Assembly (NCBI GenBank): GCA_016209705.1 | Contig: JACQVR010000094.1 | Coordinates: 64-64,063 of the forward strand | Source: Planctomycetota bacterium | Lineage (GTDB): Bacteria > Planctomycetota > MHYJ01 > JACPRB01 | Reading direction: 5' to 3' | Length of the DNA stretch: 64,000 bases | Shown: piece after piece, positions 30,457-63,383 of the stretch | Layout: each line of letters starts with the position of its first letter | How positions within the stretch are numbered: the first letter of the stretch is position 1 | The notes under the pieces: model-generated | What the model saw: only the letters and a program-made list of their open reading frames with translations | Database searches by the model: none | Told to the model about the DNA's origin: nothing | Translations under genes and position numbers: made by a program

Positions 30457-30539
30457 TATGGTATGTTACATTCCATGTTACGTTTTATTCTCAAAACTTA
30501 TTGTAACGTTACAATATATTTTCAAAATATTTCGTAACA
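30457..30539. promoter_or_regulatory. AT-rich operator cluster A. It holds a perfect palindrome TTGTAACGTTACAA (30501-30514) and arrayed GTTAC/GTAAC half-sites separated by TTTTCAAAA-type cores.
   Basis: An ~85-bp island of >75% AT in a 68% GC genome, immediately upstream of the mscL-like gene and the DUF21-CBS-EIIA gene. The same motif grammar recurs at 34980-35012 and 39185-39280. Confidence 0.5.
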
Positions 30540-34045: not shown

Positions 34046-34990
34046 ATGGCCAGAAAGACGCGATTCCTGAACATCCTCGTCACCGGCGGCGCCGGATTCA
34101 TCGGATCCAACCTCGTCCAGGCGATCCAGGCCCGCTGGCCGTCGGCCCTGCTGACCGTGGTCGACGACTTTCGCTCGGGACACTTCAAGAATCTCACCGG
34201 CTTCCGCGGAGACGTGGTGGCAGCGGACATCGGAGCCTGGGAGTCGTCCGAGAAATACGACTGCATCTTCCATCTGGCCTCGATCACCGACACCACGATC
34301 AGCGATCAATTCCGGATGGTGCGGGACAATGTGGAAGGCTTCCGCAGCGTCTTGAGGATGGCCCGCAGAATGAAGGCGATCGTGGTGTACGCCTCCAGCG
34401 CCGCGACGTACGGGCAGGCGAACGAGCGCGCGTTGGAAACGTCTCCCGCCCTTCCGACGACCGCGTACGCGTTTTCGAAGGTCGTCCTGGATCACCTGGC
34501 GGAGCGCGCGCGCTGGGACGGAATGCGCGTCGAGGGGGTTCGGTACTTCAACGTCTACGGCCCCCACGAGGCGCACAAGGGGGCGGCGGCCAGCATGATC
34601 TATCAGCTCGCCGCGCAGATGCGGAAGGACCGCCGGCCGCGAATCTTCAAGCACGGCGAGCAGCGGCGCGATTTCATCTTCGTGGACGACGCCGTGCATG
34701 CCACGCTCCTGGCGGCCGAGCGTGGAAAGAACGCCGTCTACAACGTCGGCACCGGACGCGCCCGGTCGTTCAACGAAGTCATCGACGCGCTGAACTCGGC
34801 CCTGGGAACGCGCCTGGAGCCGGAGTACTTCGACAATCCCTACGATTTCTATCAGGACTACACCGAAGCCAACATCGCCCGGGCCCGCGCCGACCTCGGC
34901 TTCACCGCCGCCTTCGGCCTCGAAGACGGAGTGCGCGAATACCTCCAGCGCCTCGGATGGACGCGCGCCGCCCATCGCCTGTTACAATAA
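34046..34990 (+). CDS. NAD-dependent epimerase/dehydratase (HldD/ADP-heptose-6-epimerase-like SDR).
   Basis: Rossmann motif ILVTGGAGFIGSNL is present, with YAFSK in the catalytic YxxxK position. Confidence 0.8.
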   Translation: MARKTRFLNILVTGGAGFIGSNLVQAIQARWPSALLTVVDDFRSGHFKNLTGFRGDVVAADIGAWESSEKYDCIFHLASITDTTISDQFRMVRDNVEGFRSVLRMARRMKAIVVYASSAATYGQANERALETSPALPTTAYAFSKVVLDHLAERARWDGMRVEGVRYFNVYGPHEAHKGAAASMIYQLAAQMRKDRRPRIFKHGEQRRDFIFVDDAVHATLLAAERGKNAVYNVGTGRARSFNEVIDALNSALGTRLEPEYFDNPYDFYQDYTEANIARARADLGFTAAFGLEDGVREYLQRLGWTRAAHRLLQ

Positions 34991-35012
34991 GTTTTGAAAA
35001 TTATTTGTAACA
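34980..35012. promoter_or_regulatory. AT-rich operator B. It is one GTTACA-N22-TGTAACA dyad with a TTTTGAAAA core, overlapping the epimerase stop and directly upstream of selenoprotein candidate 3.
   Basis: Sequence is TGTTACAATAAGTTTTGAAAATTATTTGTAACA. It follows the same grammar as operator clusters A and C. Confidence 0.45.
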
Positions 35013-39184: not shown

Positions 39185-39280
39185 TGTTACAAAACATTTT
39201 CAAAATATATCGTAACGTTACAATATATTTTGAAAACTATTTGTAACTGTTACATAAAGTTCTCAAAACTTATTGTAACG
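39185..39280. promoter_or_regulatory. AT-rich operator cluster C. Three consecutive GTTAC-N19/20-GTAAC dyads including TCGTAACGTTACAA, in the divergent region between the E1 fusion gene and trpD.
   Basis: Sequence is TGTTACAAAACATTTTCAAAATATATCGTAACGTTACAATATATTTTGAAAACTATTTGTAACTGTTACATAAAGTTCTCAAAACTTATTGTAACG. A TTGACA -35 box follows at 39282. Confidence 0.5.
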
Positions 39281-43759: not shown

Positions 43760-44197
43760 ATGTTTGAGATGCGTGGCAACGGGCGAGAAGAGAAGCCTCC
43801 CTCGTGGGCTCGAAGTCTTTCCGCCGAAATGCGCGCTTACCTCCGGCACGGCTCCGAGGAAGCGGCAAGGAATCGGAAGGAGGCGCAAAAGGATCGGCAG
43901 GAAATGCGGGCCTATTTCCAGAAAGTAATCGAGAAGGCCGATGCGGATCGGCGGGAAACGCGGGAGTACTTCCAGAAAGTGATCGCGAATGCTGAAGCGG
44001 ACCGGAAGGAAATGCGGGCCTTCTTCCAAACCGTGGCCGCGCAGGCGGCGGACGACCGCGCGGACTTCAAGGCGGATCGGGCCAACTTCGCCAAGCTCAC
44101 CGCGATGGTCGTTAAGATCGGCAACGAGATCATCAGGCGGCTCGAAGATATCCAGCGAACGCTCTACATCCAAGGCAACGGGCGTAGGAATAGGTAA
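43760..44197 (+). CDS. Hypothetical repeat protein. It has 3 copies of an ~19-aa EMRAYFQKVIxxAxADRxE unit plus a C-terminal module DFKADRANFAKL...IQGNGRRNR that is duplicated at 50410-50549.
   Basis: Internal periodicity is clear. The C-terminal 46 aa are ~80% identical (about 75% at DNA level) to the tail of ORF 50247..50549. Confidence 0.5.
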   Translation: MFEMRGNGREEKPPSWARSLSAEMRAYLRHGSEEAARNRKEAQKDRQEMRAYFQKVIEKADADRRETREYFQKVIANAEADRKEMRAFFQTVAAQAADDRADFKADRANFAKLTAMVVKIGNEIIRRLEDIQRTLYIQGNGRRNR

Positions 44198-50250: not shown

Positions 50251-50549
50251 GAGGGGGCATAGGATACTCCAGCTACGATATACGGCTGCGTGCGGTCAGC
50301 GCAGTGCAGCGAGGTACGGGGATCTGCGTCGTGGCGGAGGCTTTTGGCACAAATCGCTCGACGCTCCATCGGTGGATACAGCGTTATCAATGGGAAAATG
50401 AAGCCGATCGAGAAGATTTCAAAAAAGATCGGGCCAACTTTGCCAAGCTCATGGCCGTGGCGCTCAGGACCGGGAACGAGATCATCCGCCGGCTCGACAA
50501 CATCCAGCACACCCTCCGCATCCAAGGCAATGGGCGCAAGAATCGATAG
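50247..50549 (+). mobile_element. IS630-family transposase N-terminal HTH fragment fused to a copy of the DRANFAKL...IQGNGRKNR module.
   Basis: YDIRLRAVSAVQRGTGICVVAEAFGTNRSTLHRWIQRY resembles the IS630/Tc1 HTH. No DDE domain follows. Instead the tail matches the C-terminus of ORF 43760..44197. Confidence 0.45.
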
Positions 50550-52258: not shown

Positions 52259-52885
52259 TCAATGACCGCCCAATCCACGGCCGGCGACATGCAGGATGAC
52301 AAAGAGCAGGACCAAGACGAGGGCGATGATACCCAATATCTTCACCCAGCGGCCGGGTTCGATGGCGGTGTCGCCACGCTGATCGCGCATCTTGCGCCGT
52401 CCATATGGGGTCATCCCTCGCGGCTTGTACACGGAGAGCGCCGCCGCCACGCCCAACGCGACCAGAGCCGCGCCGGCGTCCGCCACGAGTTGAAGCCGCA
52501 GTCCGGCGAGCTCGCCATGGGCCAGCGTCGTCTCCGCCACGACGCGCGCCAGGTGCCCGACGGGTTGCATGTGCATCAGCAAGAGGATCGTGGCGAGGAC
52601 GGTGATCAGGAATTTCACCAGGACCCAATAGTGCCGGAACAAGCCCCACTCCGTGCCCAGCGACATGATCAGGCCGGTCGGCAGCGATGCGAGACTCAGC
52701 GGAACGATGACGAACCAGCCGGTCAATGTCATCGCCAGATAGGCGGCGCGCACCATCTGAACATCCTCGCTCGCGAGGCCGGCGATCGCGAGGGCGAGGA
52801 AGCCCGCGACCGCGCCGAGCCAGCCGACCGAGGAGGTAACATGTCCGGTGAGCGCGAATTTTCGAAGACTCGAGGTCATGATCAT
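52259..52885 (-). CDS. Hypothetical integral membrane protein (about 5 TM segments).
   Basis: The ORF is hydrophobic. Start MIMTSSLRKF is at 52885, and it overlaps the upstream AKR gene by 4 nt. Confidence 0.5.
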   Translation of the reverse strand: MIMTSSLRKFALTGHVTSSVGWLGAVAGFLALAIAGLASEDVQMVRAAYLAMTLTGWFVIVPLSLASLPTGLIMSLGTEWGLFRHYWVLVKFLITVLATILLLMHMQPVGHLARVVAETTLAHGELAGLRLQLVADAGAALVALGVAAALSVYKPRGMTPYGRRKMRDQRGDTAIEPGRWVKILGIIALVLVLLFVILHVAGRGLGGH

Positions 52886-53706
52886 GGCGAAACCTCCAGG
52901 TATTCGATCGCCCGCACCGCTGGATCGGGCAAGGCCAGATCGAGGGAGGCGAGATCCTGTCTCATATGCTCGGGATCGGAGGTGCCCGTGAGAGGCAGCA
53001 TCCCGACCGCTCGCGCGAATCGGAACACGATCTGAGCCGGGGTGACGTTCAGACGCCTCGCGAGATCCGTGACACGCGGGAGGTGGAGAACCTCCGGATT
53101 GGCCGTGAGCAACGAAAACCCCTGATAAACGATGCCCCTTTCCTTGCAGAACGCGCGCACGCCGCGATCCCAACCCAGCCGCGCGAAGCAACGATTCTGA
53201 ACGAACGCCGGAGGTTCCGGCTGCGCGGCCGCCATTTGTTGAAGATGCCGGAGCGACACATTGCTGACGCCCACCCGCCGCGCCCGTCCGGCATCTCGCT
53301 CCCGCACCATCGACGCCCAGACTTCCGTGTCCTCCGCCGTCCAGCCATGTCCAGAGGACGGCCCATGCATGATGAAGCTGTCGACGTAGTCGGTTCCCAG
53401 ATGTTCGAGTGAGCTGGCCGTCGACTGAGCGACCTGCGTGGAGAGATCGGCGGCGGGATCGTACGGCAAACGGTGGTCCTGTCCGGCCTGGTGCGTGAAC
53501 TTCGTCTGGAGGAACAGATCCTCGCGCTTGACAACTCCCGCCCGGTAGGCGGCGGTGAGACCCTCGCCTACTCCGGCTTCAAAATAGTGGCGTCTCTGGT
53601 TGGCCGTGTCGATGCCGCGAAATCCCATCCGCAGCGCGAGTTCGGTGAGCGCGGCGGTGCGGTCTTCCTTCCAGGCGGTGCCGTAGAGGAAATAGGGGAC
53701 GAGCAT
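52882..53706 (-). CDS. Aldo/keto reductase.
   Basis: YGTAWKED...GFRGIDTANQ, catalytic tetrad context and IMHGPSSGH are present. The start was set at ATG 53706 because the 64-nt leader element abuts it directly. Confidence 0.75.
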   Translation of the reverse strand: MLVPYFLYGTAWKEDRTAALTELALRMGFRGIDTANQRRHYFEAGVGEGLTAAYRAGVVKREDLFLQTKFTHQAGQDHRLPYDPAADLSTQVAQSTASSLEHLGTDYVDSFIMHGPSSGHGWTAEDTEVWASMVRERDAGRARRVGVSNVSLRHLQQMAAAQPEPPAFVQNRCFARLGWDRGVRAFCKERGIVYQGFSLLTANPEVLHLPRVTDLARRLNVTPAQIVFRFARAVGMLPLTGTSDPEHMRQDLASLDLALPDPAVRAIEYLEVSP

Positions 53707-53709
53707 GGC

Positions 53710-53773
53710 GTAGAATTTGCTCAGATGTCCGAATGTCGCAAATTCTACCATCCGAAACCTGCGGTTTCGGCAT
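53710..53773 (-). ncRNA. Conserved 64-nt structured leader element, copy 1, immediately 5' of the AKR start codon.
   Basis: Sense strand is AUGCCGAAACCGCAGGUUUCGGAUGGUAGAAUUUGCGACAUUCGGACAUCUGAGCAAAUUCUAC-GCC-AUG. It folds as two hairpins. Copy 2 at 60163-60226 differs by a compensatory change (AAUUUGC/GCAAAUU versus AAAUUGC/GCAAUUU). Confidence 0.5.
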
Positions 53774-53881
53774 AATTTCGAGGGGAACGGATGGCGTGAG
53801 CAAAAGGATCCATCGGTGTTTCGAGACTGTAGCATAAATACCGGGCTTATCCGTGCCTCGAGCGAACTGAATGAAGGGTGC

Positions 53882-54620
53882 CTAGCGTTTTGTGGCGGCT
53901 ATCGGCTTGGGATAAAGCGGAGAGGCGTCGCTGGTGATTTCCTTCAGCTTCAGCTCGCGACTCTGCAGGATCAACTGGAAGCGTTGGAGAAACCGTTGGA
54001 TGTCCTCGTGAGTCGGGTCATGGTCAACAACCTCGTACAAAAGCCGTTTGAAGTTGCGGTTGTCCACGATCGACAGCACGCAGAAAGGCCCGTCATAGAG
54101 TTCGTCTATGGCAATGTATCCGGAGAATCCACGAAGGGCCCAGTCCAGGTAGTCAGCCTCGATGCGAGCTTCGCCTTTTTTTCCCTGACGTCTCAACCCA
54201 GTTCTGGATCGTGGCGAATGGCACAAAGACACGGTGGTCACGCCAAAGATGCCAGGAGGCCGCCCGATACGGCAGACTGTCTTCGACGACCAATCGGACA
54301 GCGGCCGATACAACGCGGTGGGTGTAGCGGCGGCCGGGTAAGGCGAGGTCTGACATGTCGGCGTTGAAATACTTTCTGCAGCGAGAGCAAAAATGCTGAG
54401 AGTAGGTAAGCTGAATGTCGACGGGGCGTTCCGACCGCGGGTCCCCCAGGTCGTGGAGCACTCGCCCCATCCGCTTCTCGCGATAACATCTGTGAGCACA
54501 TTCGGGGCAGGGTCGACGTTTGTAGTCTCGGCTCCTCTGAATAGCCTTGGGTTTCGGAAGGTCTTCAACTCGCGTTATCCCTTCTGTCCGGTCCGGCCGA
54601 TTTTCCCCCGGTGCAGCCAT
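53882..54620 (-). pseudogene. ISL3-family transposase remnant (N-terminal zinc-finger/HTH region plus the start of the DDE domain), frameshifted and C-terminally truncated.
   Basis: Frame 1 reads RPCPECAHRCYREKRMGRVLHDLGD...RFCSRCRKYF. Frame 2 reads ...YIAIDELYDGPFCVLSIVDNRNFKRLLYEVVDHD. Only about 245 of the expected 400-450 aa are present. Confidence 0.6.
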
Positions 54621-54671
54621 TCTTTCTCTCTCCAGGCAAGAAACCGCCTCTCCCCTGGAGAAATCGGCTCA

Positions 54672-54719
54672 AAACGACGAATAGCTGAAGATTAATCCCG
54701 GTTTCTATGCTACACACTC
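54672..54719. repeat. 48-bp exact direct repeat, copy A (AAACGACGAATAGCTGAAGATTAATCCCGGTTTCTATGCTACACACTC).
   Basis: It is identical to 56016-56063. It lies at the outer edge of the ISL3 remnant and forms the C-terminal tail of the truncated sigma gene. Confidence 0.6.
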
Positions 54720-54720
54720 C

Positions 54721-55203
54721 GTTTGTTCGTCCGTTTCTCCTACCTGGTCCTGCCGAATTTCGGGAGCGCCGAAGGGTGATGACGCGCCGGTACGCCCCGC
54801 CCAGCTCCTCCAAGTACTCGTCGAGCGCTTGGCGCTGCCGGTCGAGATCGCCGGCCGCCTCGACTTCCAGGGCGACTTTCTCCATCCGTTCGAGGGCCCC
54901 CGGAGGCACGGCCATGGCGCCGCGCCTGGCGCGTTCGAGGTGCTCGAGCAGGCGGTGGCGCGAGATTTCGCGCACCCACGCCAGGAAGTTCGTGCCCGGC
55001 TTGTACTGCGCGGCGCTCCGGAGCGCGACGAGCGACACCTCCTGGAGCAGATCTTCCGCGTCGTGCGAGTTCCATACCGCGGCCAGGAGATAGGCGTAGA
55101 GGTCCGCCCGATGCTTGATGAGCAGCATCGGGACGACGTCGGAATCGCCAGCGCACCCTGCGCCCACGTCGGGCTGATCGTCCGGTTTCTGCATCCTCTT
55201 CAT
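54721..55203 (-). pseudogene. Sigma-70/ECF-type sigma factor truncated within region 4 by the 48-bp repeat.
   Basis: Region 2 (DLLQEVSLVALRSAAQYKPGTNFLAWVREISRHRL) and the start of region 4 (YRRVITLRR) are present. The reading frame then enters repeat-derived sequence (VCSIETGINLQLFVV). Confidence 0.5.
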
Positions 55204-55901: not shown

Positions 55902-55940
55902 AAAACCCCCGGCGCCCGCCGGGGGTTTTTCTTTTTACCG
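55902..55940 (+). terminator. Rho-independent (bidirectional) terminator.
   Basis: AAAACCCCCGGCGCCCGCCGGGGGTTTTTCTTTTT has an 8-9 bp GC stem flanked by an A-tract and a T-tract. Confidence 0.8.
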
Positions 55941-56015: not shown

Positions 56016-56063
56016 AAACGACGAATAGCTGAAGATTAATCCCGGTTTCTATGCTACACACTC
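56016..56063. repeat. 48-bp exact direct repeat, copy B. It supplies the last 4 codons and the stop of the M48 protease gene.
   Basis: It is identical to 54672-54719. The minus-strand reading GAG TGT GTA GCA TAG within the repeat ends ORF 56049..57419. Confidence 0.6.
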
Positions 56064-57419: not shown

Positions 57420-57421
57420 AA

Positions 57422-57463
57422 GAGTCCCGAGTCCCGAGTCGCGAGTCCTGAGTCACGAGTCGC
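57422..57463. repeat. Tandem heptanucleotide repeat (GAGTCNC) x6 in the lemA-M48 intergenic region.
   Basis: Units are GAGTCCC GAGTCCC GAGTCGC GAGTCCT GAGTCAC GAGTCGC. The unit length is not a multiple of 3, and every unit contains GANTC. Confidence 0.7.
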
Positions 57464-59460: not shown

Positions 59461-60162
59461 TCATCCGATCAGATGCGTGTAGTCCCGGAAAGGCGCTCGG
59501 CAGGGAGGGCCATCCGCAAACAGGAGCCGCTCTCCGTGTGAAGATCGGATGAGCATGAGCGAGGAAACGGTTCCGTACACGTCGCCGTGCTTGCAGACGG
59601 GTCGATCTCCTTCGTGCGAACGCAGGAAATCCGCCAGATCCGCCTCCGGCGGGACCGCGGAGTTCTCGGAAAAGCTCCGCAGAAACGTCCGCCGTTCAGG
59701 CATCGCGGGATCGTCGAGGTCGGCGTTCGTCGAAATGACGTGACGGCCGGGTCCGAACGAAGTTCTGCGAAGCTCGCCATCCCAGTGGAGGCACAACCCG
59801 ACGCCGTCCTTTTCCACCGCGACCATGTTGAAGCCGGCCACCGGCCGCTCGCCGACGCGCTTGGCGATAAGGGCTTCGACTCAGCCCAGCGCGCGGCAGT
59901 CCAGCGCCTCCAGAGCCACCAAACCGCGCGAGTAAGAGTCCGGCGTCTTCGCCGGAGTCCGGCGATTGGTCACGGCCACGACAAGTCCGTGGCGGTTGAC
60001 GGCGAACCACGTGCCGCCCCCCTCGAGGTCCTGAGGGCCGACAACGCCGGGTCGCAGCTCCTTCGGCGGCGCGGAGAGGCGCGCGACCCGTTCGTCCCGA
60101 TTGGCGCCGATCACCAGGGGGATGTCACGATCCAGGCCGACGAACAGGGTGAGCACGCACAT
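59461..60162 (-). pseudogene. NRDE (TANGO2-like, DUF833) family gene interrupted by an in-frame TGA (complement 59881-59883).
   Basis: The start reads MCVLTLFVGLDRDIPLVIGANRDERV (the MC...ANRDE signature). The frame then reads ...LEALDCRALG-TGA-VEALIAKRVGERPVAGFNMVAVEKDG... to 59461. No UxxC chemistry or GGUUC-loop hairpin follows the TGA. Confidence 0.45.
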
Positions 60163-60226
60163 GTAGAAATTGCTCAGATTGTGGGATGTCGCAATTTCTA
60201 ACGGCTGAAACCTTCGGTTCCGGCAT
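60163..60226 (-). ncRNA. Conserved 64-nt structured leader element, copy 2, immediately 5' of the NRDE start codon.
   Basis: Sense strand is AUGCCGGAACCGAAGGUUUCAGCCGUUAGAAAUUGCGACAUCCCACAAUCUGAGCAAUUUCUAC-AUG. It is ~80% identical to copy 1 with covarying stem positions. Confidence 0.5.
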
Positions 60227-60983
60227 CCCGCTGCCGAGTCTCGCAAGCGGGCCGTCGCTCCTGCGGAACCGTATTCTGGAACTTGAGAGGGCGCGGTAGG
60301 ATTCGGGGAAAGCACTGGAAAGGAGGAAGGTAAATGACCTGTCCCCAAATCCAATCCCAACGGCGCCGGTCGAACCGCGCGCGAAGCTCCTCCACCGCCG
60401 CTCGCGCCCGGTTCGCGGCCGCTTCGGCCTCGAGCATTCTGGTCCGCAGGAGTTCCAGTTCCGCGCGACGCGCCTCCTCGGCCCCCCGCTCCGCTTCCCG
60501 CTTCAGGATGGCGTCCGCTTCGCTTTCCAGAACCCACCGGCCCCGGAAGCGGACGAAACCTTCGGCCGCGCGGATTTCGACCTCCGTCATCCATCGCCCT
60601 TCATGCCGCCGGTAGCCGAGCGCGGCCCGAGCGCCGGCGTGATCGGGTTCTCGAACCACGACTTCCTCGAAGAGCTTGCGGGCGCGAGTGAGCAAATCCC
60701 GCTCGGCGGCCCACCGGGCCAGCCGGTATCGACCCTCCACATCGCCGGGCCGCAGGGCGGCCGCGCGCCGCTCCAACTCGTCAAGCGCCGAAGGCCCTCG
60801 GTGAATGCGGGCCACGTCGGATCGCCGGAGCGTGATCGTGCCATAATCCAACTCCACCACCACGCTCGACGCGGATTCCGTCACTCGGCCTTCGAACCTG
60901 GCTCCGTTGCGCAGTACGACTTCGTCCGCGCGCGCCGGCACGCGGAGAAGCGCAAGCCCCACGATCCACGCAGCGTATTTCAT
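60198..60983 (-). CDS. Hypothetical secreted protein (Arg/Glu-rich coiled-coil C-terminus).
   Basis: Signal peptide MKYAAWIVGLALLRVPARA is present. The extent is uncertain because the upstream track ORF portion is artefact and the 3' end overlaps the leader element. Confidence 0.4.
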   Translation of the reverse strand: MKYAAWIVGLALLRVPARADEVVLRNGARFEGRVTESASSVVVELDYGTITLRRSDVARIHRGPSALDELERRAAALRPGDVEGRYRLARWAAERDLLTRARKLFEEVVVREPDHAGARAALGYRRHEGRWMTEVEIRAAEGFVRFRGRWVLESEADAILKREAERGAEEARRAELELLRTRMLEAEAAANRARAAVEELRARFDRRRWDWIWGQVIYLPPFQCFPRILPRPLKFQNTVPQERRPACETRQRDAGTEGFSR

Positions 60984-61031
60984 GAGTCTATATATTATAA
61001 GCCTGGAGCGGCGCGATTGATTCGAAATACG

Positions 61032-63383
61032 ATGGGCGGCACGCGGACCCGTGCGGAAGCGGCGGGGATTTTCCTGCTCAGCGCCGCCTGTCTGTTCTTC
61101 GAGCTCCACGCGTTCCGATTCTTCACGCTTTCCCAATGGCACCATTTTGGAGCGCTCGTCGTTTCGCTGGCGCTCTTCGGCGGCGCGGCGGCGGGTGTCG
61201 CCCTCGCGCTGTCGAGGCGCCTTCGGCGGGCGGATCCCGGGACCGCTGCGGCGACATGCGCCGTCGCCATGGCGGTCTCCGCGTGGGCTGGCCTGCACGC
61301 CGCTTCCTGGATCCCTTTCCGTCCGGTTCGCGCCTCGGTGGGACCGGAAGAACTGGCGGCGGTGGCGGGATGGTATCTATGTTTCGGCGTCCCGATGTTC
61401 TTCGCCTCGTTGGGCGTGCTGTACTTCCTGCTCAGGCGTCCCGGGAACGTGGGGACGATCTATGCGTCCAATCTTCTCGGCGGGGCGGCGGGCGTAGCGT
61501 CGGCCCTTTGGCTGGAAAGCGCCCTCGACGGGCAGGAAGCGGCGGCAACGGCCGTTTTGGGCCTCTGCGCCGCCACGTGCTTCGTTCATCTTTCCCCGTG
61601 GCGGATCGGCGGCGCGTCCGTTTTCTTGCTGCTCGCCGCCTGGATGCGTCCCGAGATCCCGGTATCCGAATTCAAGGCCCTGGCGAGCCTGCCGAATACG
61701 CTGGGAGCGCGCAGCGTTCATTCTGGTCGTGCCGAAGGACATCACGTGGCGTTGTTGAAGGTTCCCACGTTTCGGCGCGCGCCGGGACTCTCGCTGGCCT
61801 ATCGTGGAAGGGTTCCGACCGGTCTGACCGTCGTGGTGGACGGCGATCGTCCCGATGTGCTTCTCGAACCGCCCGTGGATCCGGATCTGCCGGCCCATCT
61901 GCCGGGAGCCGTCGGCCACGAGCTGGCCCCCGAAGGGCGAGCTTTGATCCTGGACGCGGCGGGGAATCTGCCGGTCCTGACCGCCAACCGATATGGGAGA
62001 TCTTCGCTGGTGCATCTCCCTCCCGAAATCGCGGGCGTTTGGTTCGACGTTCAGGGCTTGGATGCCCGCCGATATTTCCCGGGGGCGACGGTGGTGACGG
62101 TTCCTCCGAGAACGCTGCTGCGGGCCCAACCCGACGGCTCGGTTGCGTATGTGGAGATCGCCTTGCGTGACGGCGCGGCCACCATGACGGCCGCTCTGGG
62201 ACAGCCGACCGAAGGCTATCTGTTCACGGTGGAAGCGTGGAGGGAAATGCTGAGGTGTCTGGCTCCGGACGGCCTCTTGTGCGTGACGCGATGGCTCGAA
62301 TTTCCTCCGCGCGAAAGCTTGCGGCTGGCCGCGACCGCCGTCGAGGCGTTGAAAGAAGGCGCTCCGGCGGAGCGCTGCCTCGTGGCGTTTCGGTCGCTCC
62401 AGACGATCACCTTTCTAATCAGGCCTCGAGGATTCGATCCAGCTTCGCGCCGACGGTTGGCCGAAGCGCTGCGAAGGCGATCCTACGAATTGATCTATCC
62501 TGCGGGAGGAGGCGGAGTTCATGCCGCCGCCCTCGATGCGTTGCTGCGCGATCCGGAGAAGTTGTACGCTTCCTATCCCTTCTACATACGTCCCGCGACG
62601 GATGACCGGCCCTTCCCATGGTTTTTCCTCAAGCCGGGACGACTGGGCGAGTTGCGCGAACGGGCGGACATCGGCTGGCGCCCCCTGCTGGACGGGGGGT
62701 TTCTTTTGGGAGCCGCGGCGGTGCAGGCGGCCTTCATCGGCTTGATCTTGATCGCGCTTCCCTTTCTGCGAGCGCGCGATCGGCCTCCCGTATCGTCGGC
62801 GGTCGCGCCCGGAATCTACTTCTTCTTGATCGGCCTCGGATTTCTATTCGTTGAAATCCCTCTCGCGCAAATCTTGACGCGATCGGCGCCTTCGGCCGCG
62901 CATGCGTTCGGACTCGTGATCGCGACCATGTTCCTGGGCGCCGGCACCGGTTCCTACTTGTCCGGACGTCTGAGACTGGATCGTGTGGCCGTCGTCGTGG
63001 CCGCCGCCGCGCTGGTGATCGGTGCGCAGTGTGCCTTGTTGCCGCGGATCGGGACGTGGACGCTGGTTCCGGGAGGGTGGTGGATGGTTGGATCCCTTCT
63101 GGGCGCGCTTCCCTCCGTGGCCATGGGCATGGCCATGCCGGGAGGATTTCGCTGGGCGGGGCCGCTCGGCTCTTGGGGACCTTCCTGGGGATGGGCGGTC
63201 AATGGATGCGCCTCGGTGGTTTCGCCGCTTTTGGCGTCGATCCTGGCACTCGGCGTCGGGTTCCGTTTTGTGCTCGGCGTGGCGGCGGTCCTATACGTTA
63301 CCGCCGGAGGAATGCTTTATTTCAAGTCCCGAGTCGTGAGTCCGGAGTCCCGAGTCGAAGACGAGCTATCGCCTTCTTCATGA
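61032..63383 (+). CDS. Polytopic membrane protein with a spermidine/spermine-synthase-like (aminopropyltransferase) domain.
   Basis: N-terminal TM helices are followed by a central methyltransferase-like fold (LLCVTRWLEFPPRESL) and C-terminal TM helices. The extreme C-terminus overlaps GAGTC heptamer repeats and may terminate earlier. Confidence 0.55.
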   Translation: MGGTRTRAEAAGIFLLSAACLFFELHAFRFFTLSQWHHFGALVVSLALFGGAAAGVALALSRRLRRADPGTAAATCAVAMAVSAWAGLHAASWIPFRPVRASVGPEELAAVAGWYLCFGVPMFFASLGVLYFLLRRPGNVGTIYASNLLGGAAGVASALWLESALDGQEAAATAVLGLCAATCFVHLSPWRIGGASVFLLLAAWMRPEIPVSEFKALASLPNTLGARSVHSGRAEGHHVALLKVPTFRRAPGLSLAYRGRVPTGLTVVVDGDRPDVLLEPPVDPDLPAHLPGAVGHELAPEGRALILDAAGNLPVLTANRYGRSSLVHLPPEIAGVWFDVQGLDARRYFPGATVVTVPPRTLLRAQPDGSVAYVEIALRDGAATMTAALGQPTEGYLFTVEAWREMLRCLAPDGLLCVTRWLEFPPRESLRLAATAVEALKEGAPAERCLVAFRSLQTITFLIRPRGFDPASRRRLAEALRRRSYELIYPAGGGGVHAAALDALLRDPEKLYASYPFYIRPATDDRPFPWFFLKPGRLGELRERADIGWRPLLDGGFLLGAAAVQAAFIGLILIALPFLRARDRPPVSSAVAPGIYFFLIGLGFLFVEIPLAQILTRSAPSAAHAFGLVIATMFLGAGTGSYLSGRLRLDRVAVVVAAAALVIGAQCALLPRIGTWTLVPGGWWMVGSLLGALPSVAMGMAMPGGFRWAGPLGSWGPSWGWAVNGCASVVSPLLASILALGVGFRFVLGVAAVLYVTAGGMLYFKSRVVSPESRVEDELSPSS

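What the first reader, a model, noticed from the sequence alone, without database searches (positions are those of the whole stretch)
53710..53773. 64-nt structured leader element present twice, abutting the start codons of two unrelated genes, with a compensatory base-pair swap
Copies at 53710-53773 and 60163-60226 (both minus sense) are about 80% identical. Each ends 0-3 nt before an ATG, the aldo/keto reductase start and the NRDE MC... start respectively. Both fold into a small 5' hairpin plus an 11-bp helix whose 3' strand would occlude the ribosome-binding region. The copies differ by a paired change in that helix (AAUUUGC:GCAAAUU versus AAAUUGC:GCAAUUU), so structure rather than sequence is preserved. 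Each copy also begins with AUG and encodes an out-of-frame uORF (MPKPQVSDGRICDI... / MPEPKVSAVRNCDI...) that overlaps the main start. Candidate roles are a riboregulator, an RNA thermometer or leader-peptide attenuation, or possibly a mobile cassette boundary.
Basis: seen in the sequence. Interest (0 to 1): 0.7.

Follow-up and report, generated by a model that had tools for sequence, protein, structure and literature searches.

The report
Two-copy hairpin repeat abutting start codons
A 64-base, two-hairpin sequence occurs twice in this planctomycete genome fragment, each copy ending right at the start codon of an unrelated gene; it is a real, lineage-specific copied element that probably gates translation, but with only two copies its function is unproven and this kind of element is already known.

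Summary
Copies lie at 53773..53710 and 60226..60163, both on the minus strand. They share 51 of 64 bases, and similarity stops sharply at both ends. Copy A ends 3 nt before the aldo/keto reductase ATG and copy B ends 0 nt before the NRDE/TANGO2 ATG; both starts are confirmed by homologues. Both copies fold into an 8-bp and a 10-bp hairpin. One base pair of the long helix is swapped compensatorily.

Neutral divergence would keep that helix intact in only about 2% of simulations. The centre of its loop is hypervariable and its flanks are invariant.

The element matches no Rfam family. It is absent from GTDB genomes, JGI metagenomes, viral contigs, plasmids and phages, and from the orthologous loci of the nearest relatives. 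It is therefore a recently copied, lineage-restricted module, not a conserved leader of either gene.

A thermometer is unlikely, because the helix is predicted folded from 10 to 65 C. Leader-peptide attenuation is unlikely, because the uORF is not conserved.

In copy B the upstream gene's stop codon forms the first three bases of the long helix. My best guess is a translational-coupling gate of the RNA-unfolding type (confidence about 0.35). Rivals are a start-codon-targeting selfish repeat and a DNA operator. Interest is modest.

The parts
53710..53773 (-). Copy A of the 64-nt element; followed by GCC and then the reductase ATG at 53706
   Evidence: 93 bits
60163..60226 (-). Copy B of the 64-nt element; followed directly by the NRDE ATG at 60162
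   Evidence: 91 bits; reproduced in an independent Logan assembly of the same sample (L032)
53752..53770 (-). Hairpin 1 of copy A: CCGAAACC-GCA-GGUUUCGG, 8 bp
   Evidence: -11.3 kcal/mol, z -3.7
53711..53747 (-). Hairpin 2 of copy A: UAGAAUUUGC-N17-GCAAAUUCUA, 10 bp, plus a G-C pair at 53748/53710
   Evidence: -14.6 kcal/mol, z -5.3
60205..60223 (-). Hairpin 1 of copy B, weakened by one G.U pair and one C/A mismatch
   Evidence: -7.5 kcal/mol, z -2.1
60164..60200 (-). Hairpin 2 of copy B: UAGAAAUUGC-N17-GCAAUUUCUA, 10 bp, with the swapped pair at columns 32/58
   Evidence: -10.5 kcal/mol, z -5.6
60198..60983 (-). Upstream co-oriented gene (NCBI HY716_12295, 261 aa, signal peptide). Its last 9 codons and its TAG (60200..60198) lie inside element B, and the TAG is the first three bases of the 5' arm of hairpin 2
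   Evidence: 100% identical annotated protein MBI4565465.1
53745..53813 (-). 22-codon ORF that starts 10 nt after the IS end and stops at the equivalent TAG of element A. It may be a remnant or a coincidence
52882..53706 (-). Aldo/keto reductase gene downstream of copy A
59461..60162 (-). NRDE/TANGO2 gene downstream of copy B, interrupted by an in-frame TGA at 59881-59883
53823..54719 (.). Defective IS-like element with 27-nt terminal inverted repeats, 49 nt upstream of copy A. It means the native upstream context of copy A is lost

Best explanation
The element is a short non-coding module that was copied within this planctomycete lineage. It now sits, in sense orientation, between an upstream reading frame and the start codon of the next gene.

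Proposed mechanism: the element is transcribed as part of the mRNA. Its stable 10-bp hairpin 2 occupies the stretch just 5' of the AUG, where the 30S subunit must dock, and no Shine-Dalgarno sequence is present, so free initiation is poor. The stop codon UAG of the upstream frame forms the first three bases of the 5' arm of the hairpin. A ribosome finishing that frame therefore covers or unwinds the arm, frees the 3' arm and the AUG 35-38 nt downstream, and allows initiation or re-initiation. This is translational coupling of the 'RNA unfolding' type.

Shown:
- the repeat and its sharp borders
- its position at two verified start codons
- the hairpins, and conservation of helix 2 with one double change
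- the stop codon of an annotated gene inside copy B
- absence of the element from relatives

Inferred:
- that the element is transcribed
- that the helix blocks initiation
- that upstream translation relieves the block
For: - Sharp 64-nt unit, 51/64 identical, 0 expected by chance.
- Both copies end 0-3 nt before verified start codons, in sense orientation.
- Helix 2 is 10/10 paired in both copies, with one double change.
- With 13 random substitutions the helix survives intact in 2.0% of 200,000 simulations, and intact with a double change in 0.7%.
- In the loop, 5 of 6 central positions differ and 0 of 11 flanking positions differ (p = 0.001).
- Hairpin 2 folds far better than shuffles in both copies (z -5.3 and -5.6) and is predicted folded from 10 to 65 C.
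- There is no SD motif before either AUG, although several neighbouring genes have GGAGG/GAGGA.
- The NCBI-annotated upstream gene ends at the TAG that opens helix 2 of copy B. Its homologues have a variable tail of similar length.
- The same frame carries a 22-codon ORF ending at the same TAG in copy A.
- No promoter-like or terminator-like site lies in or next to either copy.
- The architecture matches the f1 gene VII/IX and MS2 cases reviewed in PMC12548453.
Against: - There are only two copies, so covariation has no statistical power.
- The double change and the hairpin 1 changes fit a DNA palindrome, or the opposite strand, equally well.
- A stop-to-start distance of 35-38 nt is long for efficient coupling (PMC12548453).
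- In copy A the upstream ORF is only 22 codons and starts next to an IS end, so its stop at the TAG may be coincidence.
- The AUG itself is predicted about 50-70% unpaired.
- The gene after copy B carries an in-frame TGA.
- There are no expression data.
Confidence: 0.35

Rival explanations
1. A selfish small mobile repeat of the REP, REPIN or MIRU type. Its hairpins would be recognised as single-stranded DNA by a transposase, and it would insert at or next to start codons. Any effect on expression would be incidental, or merely tolerated.
For: - It is absent from every orthologous locus examined in relatives, so both copies are lineage-specific insertions or copies.
- The unit has sharp borders.
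- ATG flanks the unit on both sides (ATG[CCG...CUAC]ATG), which could be a 3-bp target duplication.
- On the + strand, hairpin 2 reads GTAG...CTAC, the REP signature.
- MIRUs are reported to insert at start codons (PMC12548453).
- Copy B overwrites the last 9 codons of a gene whose tail is variable among homologues.
Against: - Only two copies in 64 kb, both single and in the same orientation.
- No terminal inverted repeats.
- No Y1/RAYT transposase among about 60 ORFs scanned.
- No in-element ORF whose stop overlaps the gene start, unlike MIRUs (sequence reading).
- 20% divergence with a preserved helix suggests long-term constraint rather than recent bursts.
Confidence: 0.25
2. A DNA-level promoter/operator module, i.e. 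a 'putative mobile promoter'. The palindrome TAGAAWTTGC-N17-GCAAWTTCTA would be bound by a dimeric or tetrameric regulator. Transcription would start close to the ATG, giving a short or absent leader, which would explain the fixed distance to the start codon.
For: - The palindrome is AT-rich (47% GC) in a 63% GC genome.
- The neighbouring gene at 60983 has TATAAT only 15-20 nt before its ATG, so very short leaders occur here.
- Another family of AT-rich palindromes lies immediately upstream of unrelated genes in this window.
- Weak -35/-10-like hexamers can be read: TTGCGA, 16 nt, CAAATT/CAATTT (sequence reading).
- Copied upstream regions before non-homologous genes are common (PMC3488235).
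Against: - The consensus promoter scan finds nothing in either locus.
- Half-sites 27 bp apart centre to centre are unusual.
- Conservation covers all 64 nt, including the non-palindromic hairpin 1 and asymmetric loop flanks, not just a binding site.
- The swapped pair changes both half-sites of one of the two sites, which a shared regulator would not favour.
- Copy B lies partly inside a co-oriented gene, so read-through transcription is expected.
Confidence: 0.13
3. An RNA sensor in the strict sense: a thermometer, a riboswitch, or leader-peptide attenuation.
For: - The structured leader ends at the AUG.
- The invariant loop flanks (GACAU / AUCUGA) could be a binding surface.
- The downstream operons contain stress-type genes: M48 protease, LemA, DinB_2, MBL-fold protein, reductase.
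Against: - The helix is predicted more than 93% paired from 10 to 65 C.
- There is no Rfam hit.
- It is not conserved upstream of orthologues.
- The uORF peptide is not conserved and has no common stop.
- There is no terminator or conserved alternative pairing.
Confidence: 0.07
4. A site-specific recombination site or cassette boundary, of the integron attC or dif type.
For: - Both copies sit at junctions where gene order differs from relatives.
- They are direct repeats 6.45 kb apart.
- Hairpin-forming sites are typical of attC.
Against: - The core sites do not fit. The sense strand has GTTAGAA/GGTAGAA first and TTCTAC last, the reverse of the R''...R' order, and copy A lacks GTT.
- No integrase or recombinase was found in the ORFs scanned.
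- Synteny with these distant relatives is broken almost everywhere, so the junction argument is weak.
Confidence: 0.05

Closest known systems
Translational coupling by RNA unfolding (phage f1 gene VII/IX; MS2 coat with lysis/replicase), as reviewed in PMC12548453
   Same: - A hairpin ends just upstream of the downstream start.
- The upstream reading frame terminates within or at the hairpin.
- The downstream site lacks a good SD.
   Different: - Here the whole hairpin module is a copied unit found before two unrelated genes.
- The stop-to-start distance is 35-38 nt.
- Nothing has been tested experimentally.
Mycobacterial interspersed repetitive units (MIRUs; Supply et al. 1997, cited in PMC12548453)
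   Same: - Short (about 50-100 bp) repeats located between co-oriented genes, at start codons and in gene orientation.
- Thought to be mobile and to preserve expression through coupling.
   Different: - MIRUs carry an ORF whose ends overlap the flanking stop and start (-4 spacing), and they occur as tandem arrays.
- This element has no such ORF: frames 1 and 2 are open, and frame 3 stops at positions 27-29 and 51-53.
- It is single-copy at each site, is hairpin-based, and is unrelated in sequence.
Putative mobile promoters (Matus-Garcia, Nijveen and van Passel 2012, PMC3488235)
   Same: Similar non-coding sequence of 50-100 nt upstream of non-homologous genes within one genome, with flanking genes unrelated. 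More than 4000 such families have been reported.
   Different: - Their operational window is -150 to -50, with at least 80% identity over at least 50 nt.
- This element lies at -1 to -67 and is 79.7% identical.
- No promoter consensus is present.
REP / REPIN elements and GTAG palindromes (RAYT-associated)
   Same: A palindrome of about 37-39 nt with GTAG at one end on the + strand, in a non-coding position between genes.
   Different: - AT-rich rather than GC-rich.
- Only two copies were seen.
- Both are in the same orientation and abut start codons.
- One overlaps a coding tail.
- There is an extra, unrelated hairpin 1.
- No RAYT was seen.

Membership tests
Any Rfam family (including ROSE, fourU and other thermometers, riboswitches, leaders) | Covariance-model match at or near the gathering score | tested here: not met
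   The gathering-threshold scan of the whole window finds only a tRNA. Scans of both loci at E <= 10 give only noise hits of 14-18 bits to eukaryotic families.
RNA thermometer | A helix masking the SD/AUG that melts within the physiological temperature range | tested here: not met
   The predicted mean probability that the 3' arm is unpaired is <= 0.07 from 10 to 65 C in both copies. This is a prediction only.
Leader-peptide attenuator | A conserved short ORF with regulatory codons, plus alternative terminator/antiterminator pairing | tested here: not met
   The uORFs are 64 and 33 codons, with 8 non-synonymous versus 2 synonymous differences within the element. No terminator-like site.
Translational coupling, RNA-unfolding type | Co-oriented upstream ORF whose stop lies in or before a hairpin that covers the downstream initiation region | tested here: met
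   Copy B: the annotated 261-aa gene stops at 60200..60198, which is the first 3 nt of helix 2, and the helix ends at -1 of the NRDE AUG. Copy A: only a 22-codon ORF does so.
Translational coupling, RNA-unfolding type | Downstream translation depends on upstream translation and on the helix | not testable with these tools
   Needs reporter fusions or ribosome profiling.
MIRU | An internal ORF whose start and stop overlap the stop and start of the flanking genes | tested here: not met
   Frames 1 and 2 have no stop in the element. Frame 3 stops at positions 27-29 and 51-53. None overlaps the AUG (reading).
MIRU | Tandem arrays of units of about 46-101 bp | tested here: not met
   Single units at both sites.
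REP / REPIN | Imperfect palindrome with a conserved terminal GTAG/CTAC | tested here: met
   + strand: GTAGAATTTGC...GCAAATTCTAC in A and GTAGAAATTGC...GCAATTTCTAA in B.
REP / REPIN | Tens to hundreds of copies per genome, in both orientations, extragenic | not testable with these tools
   Only 64 kb of the source genome is available: 2 copies, same orientation, one overlapping 29 nt of an ORF. The source MAG is in neither of the collections scanned for the DNA core (GTDB genomes, JGI metagenomes) nor in the encoding-contig index.
REP / REPIN | Cognate RAYT (Y1 transposase) gene | tested here: inconclusive
   None among about 60 ORFs of the window. The rest of the genome is unseen.
Putative mobile promoter (PMC3488235) | At least 50 nt aligned at at least 80% identity in the -150..-50 region of non-homologous genes, with flanking CDSs unrelated | tested here: not met
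   Flanking genes are unrelated. However, identity is 51/64 = 79.7% (the 50-nt sub-windows checked give 38-39/50), and the element lies at -1..-67. The resemblance is conceptual only.
Integron attC | R'' (RYYYAAC) ... R' (GTTRRRY) in that order, 3' of cassette ORFs, with an integron integrase nearby | tested here: not met
   The core-like heptamers are in the reverse order and are degenerate in copy A. No integrase in the scanned ORFs.

The most novel reading that the evidence does not exclude
The element could be the first glimpse of a planctomycete family of tiny hairpin modules that home to start codons (ATG on both flanks). On arrival, such a module would replace the gene's native initiation signals with a ribosome-opened gate, wiring newly juxtaposed or horizontally acquired genes (the reductase is about 80% identical to proteins of other phyla) to whatever reading frame lies upstream. 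It would be a portable translational-coupling device, mechanistically distinct from MIRUs.
Probability: 0.12. Interest if true: 0.6.

Novelty: new member of a known kind. Interest (0 to 1): 0.3.

Why it matters
If the gating model is right, this would be a compact, transferable cis-module that makes translation of any downstream gene depend on upstream translation. It would come from a phylum whose expression signals are almost unstudied. It would also add a hairpin-based counterpart to the MIRU idea that small repeats can settle at start codons without silencing genes. As the evidence stands, it is a two-copy, lineage-private repeat, and its main value is as a seed for a genome-wide search in the source MAG.

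Tried and rejected
Searches for more copies, all empty:
- The exact core TTGCGACAT-N4-8-ATCTGAGCAA gave 17 hits in GTDB genomes and 14 in JGI metagenomes. None has the flanking stem, and the numbers match chance expectation. Viral contigs gave 2 chance hits, and 0 for a stem-anchored pattern.
- Plasmids and phages by blastn: nothing.
- A profile of the frame-2 translation against 1.8 billion protein representatives, to catch copies swallowed by extended gene calls: 0 hits.
- The covariance model over about 70 kb of relatives' loci: only noise.

Access to the source genome:
- Look-up of window proteins failed for the NCBI contig. Only a 3.7-kb Logan contig was retrieved.

Leads that did not hold:
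- An apparent similarity between the C-terminus of the upstream protein and P0245 ('GFSR' versus 'GISR') is coincidental at the DNA level.
- The element as coding sequence: rejected. Substitutions show no codon periodicity, copy B has no in-frame start, and homologues' N-termini are short.
- A sigma-54 promoter in the element: GG-to-GC spacing is 2 nt short in A, and GG is absent in B (sequence reading).
- ECF-type -35/-10 motifs: spacing is wrong.
- A K-turn or C/D-box reading of the conserved GA...CUGA loop flanks: no 3-nt bulge, so not canonical. Left as untested tandem G.A pairs.
- The 'frameshift' in NRDE turned out to be an in-frame TGA. A selenocysteine reading has no SECIS support.

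Full report
**What is there.** On the minus strand, 53773..53710 (copy A) and 60226..60163 (copy B) align without gaps over 64 nt, with 51 identities. An alignment of 260 nt around each copy shows the similarity starting exactly at ATGCCG and ending at ...TTCTAC, with nothing alignable on either side. A degenerate 37-mer for the long hairpin finds only these two sites, with 0 expected in shuffles. A covariance model built from the two copies and run without filters finds nothing else in the window above 14 bits.

**The genes.**
- Copy A is followed by GCC and then the ATG at 53706 of an aldo/keto reductase (Pfam PF00248). NCBI's annotated protein, MBI4565455.1 from a 'Planctomycetes bacterium' MAG contig of 125,981 bp, is identical and starts there. 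Homologues have only 3-14 residues before the conserved FLYGTAWKE.
- Copy B is followed directly by the ATG at 60162 of an NRDE/TANGO2 protein. All of its homologues start MCVL/MCLL.
- Upstream of copy B lies a co-oriented 261-aa secreted protein, annotated by NCBI as HY716_12295. Its last nine codons and its TAG are inside the element.
- Upstream of copy A lies a defective IS-like element, 49 nt away, with 27-nt inverted ends (53823-54719). The original context of copy A is therefore lost.

**Structure and constraint.**
- Each copy folds into hairpin 1 (8 bp in A; one G.U pair and one mismatch in B) and hairpin 2 (10 bp, 17-nt loop). Each hairpin is more stable than dinucleotide shuffles, with z = -5.3 and -5.6 for hairpin 2.
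- Of the 13 differences, 4 fall in the 36 paired positions and 9 in the 28 unpaired positions (p = 0.06). The two differences in helix 2 form one A-U to U-A swap.
- Simulating 13 random substitutions keeps helix 2 intact in 2.0% of trials, and intact with a double change in 0.7%.
- Within the loop, 5 of the 6 central positions differ and 0 of the 11 flanking positions differ (p = 0.001). This points to a variable tip on a constrained base, GACAU...AUCUGA, possibly with tandem G.A pairs; that is untested.
- With two sequences the formal covariation test is powerless.
- The two changes in hairpin 1 give one wobble pair and one mismatch on either strand. The sequences alone therefore do not say whether the hairpins matter as RNA or as DNA.

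**What it is not.**
- Not a known RNA family: there is no Rfam match.
- No sigma-70-like promoter, and no terminator that fits.
- Not a thermometer: helix 2 is predicted to stay paired from 10 to 65 C.
- Not a conserved leader peptide: the uORFs differ in length and in 8 of 10 changed codons.
- Not coding: the substitutions show no codon periodicity, and copy B has no in-frame start.
- Not a conserved leader of either gene:
  - NRDE orthologues lack it, including L033, which keeps the NRDE...Zn-ribbon-LemA-M48 order and has only a 42-nt divergent spacer.
  - Reductase homologues overlap their upstream genes.
  - Homologues of the upstream protein are followed by an Rsm22 methyltransferase with no element.
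- No other copy was found. The conserved core is absent from 185,579 species-representative genomes, JGI metagenomes and viral contigs, and blastn with the whole element finds nothing in plasmids or phages.
- The closest relatives in a 5.8-billion-cluster protein database share only 50-64% identity with the neighbouring genes. The lineage is poorly sampled, and the rest of the source genome could not be reached.

**What it most likely is.** The sharp borders, the 20% divergence and the absence from orthologous sites show a module that was copied as a unit within this lineage. Both copies end 0-3 nt before a start codon, in sense orientation. By simple arithmetic the chance is about 0.002 per copy for random placement, or about 0.02 if placement is restricted to intergenic DNA. 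The link to start codons is therefore real, and it arises either through function or through insertion preference.

I favour an RNA-level translational gate, for four reasons:
- A stable helix fills the region just 5' of the AUG.
- There is no Shine-Dalgarno sequence there, although neighbouring genes have one.
- In copy B the annotated upstream gene terminates at the UAG that forms the base of the 5' arm. A terminating ribosome must therefore open the helix.
- This is the architecture of the 'RNA unfolding' model of translational coupling, as in f1 VII/IX and MS2 (PMC12548453).

Weak points are the 35-38 nt stop-to-start distance, the merely 22-codon upstream ORF at copy A, and the complete lack of expression data. 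Confidence is 0.35.

**Rivals.**
1. A selfish REP/MIRU-like repeat that targets start codons. The points in favour are ATG on both flanks, GTAG...CTAC on the + strand, and the report that MIRUs insert at start codons. It fails the MIRU ORF-overlap and tandem-array criteria, and no RAYT gene is in the window. Confidence 0.25. This rival is not exclusive of the gate model.
2. A DNA promoter/operator module in the sense of putative mobile promoters (PMC3488235). It is favoured by the AT-rich palindrome and by evidence that leaders can be very short here (TATAAT lies 15-20 nt before the 60983 start). It is disfavoured by the absence of any promoter consensus and by conservation well beyond a binding site. 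Confidence 0.13.
3. A true sensor RNA. Confidence 0.07.
4. A recombination site. Confidence 0.05.

**Novelty and verdict.** The sequence family itself is new: nothing like it is in Rfam or in any collection searched. The kind is familiar, however. Copied upstream modules, start-codon-associated small repeats and coupling hairpins are all described. The classification is 'new member of a known kind', with modest interest (0.3). The decisive step is a covariance-model census of the whole source MAG, followed by reporter tests of the helix and of upstream translation.

Noticed in passing
window 59881-59883 (minus strand), within NRDE gene 59461-60162: The NRDE/TANGO2 gene is split by an in-frame TGA, not a frameshift. 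The TGA aligns with Cys in 12 of the 18 closest homologues and is reproduced in an independent Logan assembly (L032). There is no SECIS-like fold and no Rfam SECIS hit, so a nonsense mutation of a Cys codon (pseudogene) is more likely than selenocysteine.
   Followed up: partly
window 53823-54719; also 56016-56063 and 54565-55203: A defective IS-like element of 897 bp with 27-nt terminal inverted repeats and a frameshifted transposase. The N-terminus of the transposase weakly resembles IS66/ISL3. A perfect 48-nt copy of its right end recurs 1344 bp away, next to the M48 protease stop. The ECF sigma gene between them has region 2 but no region 4, so it appears truncated.
   Followed up: partly
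window 30476-30539, 34980-35012, 39185-39280: Six copies, in arrays of 2, 1 and 3, of a 31-33-nt AT-rich palindrome TGTTAC-N21-GTAACA. They lie immediately upstream of unrelated genes: an 88-aa ORF plus a CNNM/CBS transporter, a HEAT-repeat protein, and the divergent E1 dehydrogenase / trpD pair. This looks like an operator, or a second family of gene-proximal repeats.
   Followed up: partly
window 57420-57462 and 63325-63357: Tandem heptanucleotide repeats (GACTCGN on the minus strand) fill much of the LemA-M48 spacer, right up to the M48 start codon. They recur 5.9 kb away at the 3' end of the large membrane-protein ORF.
   Followed up: no
window 55902-55929: A perfect 13-bp palindrome, AAAACCCCCGGCG/CGCCGGGGGTTTT, lies between the convergent DUF3332 gene and the M48 operon. 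It looks like a bidirectional intrinsic terminator and marks the end of the operon that starts at copy B.
   Followed up: no
window 52882-53706: The reductase is about 76-81% identical to proteins from Terriglobales, Methylomirabilota and Rokubacteria MAGs. The best hits of its neighbours reach only 50-64%. This suggests horizontal acquisition, or unusually strong conservation.
   Followed up: no
window 44053-44196 / 50405-50548 and 43878-44039: A 144-nt repeat (75% identical) lies at the 3' ends of two small + strand ORFs 6.3 kb apart. A 3 x 54-nt tandem repeat sits just before the first of them.
   Followed up: no
window 60603-61058 (+) versus 60198-60983 (-): The 926-aa + strand ORF, which a gene caller took whole on the Logan contig, overlaps the real minus-strand gene in antisense register. 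Its plausible start is near 61059 (MGGTRTR...). GC-by-codon-position cannot separate the two, but NCBI annotates the minus-strand gene and homologues support it.
   Followed up: partly
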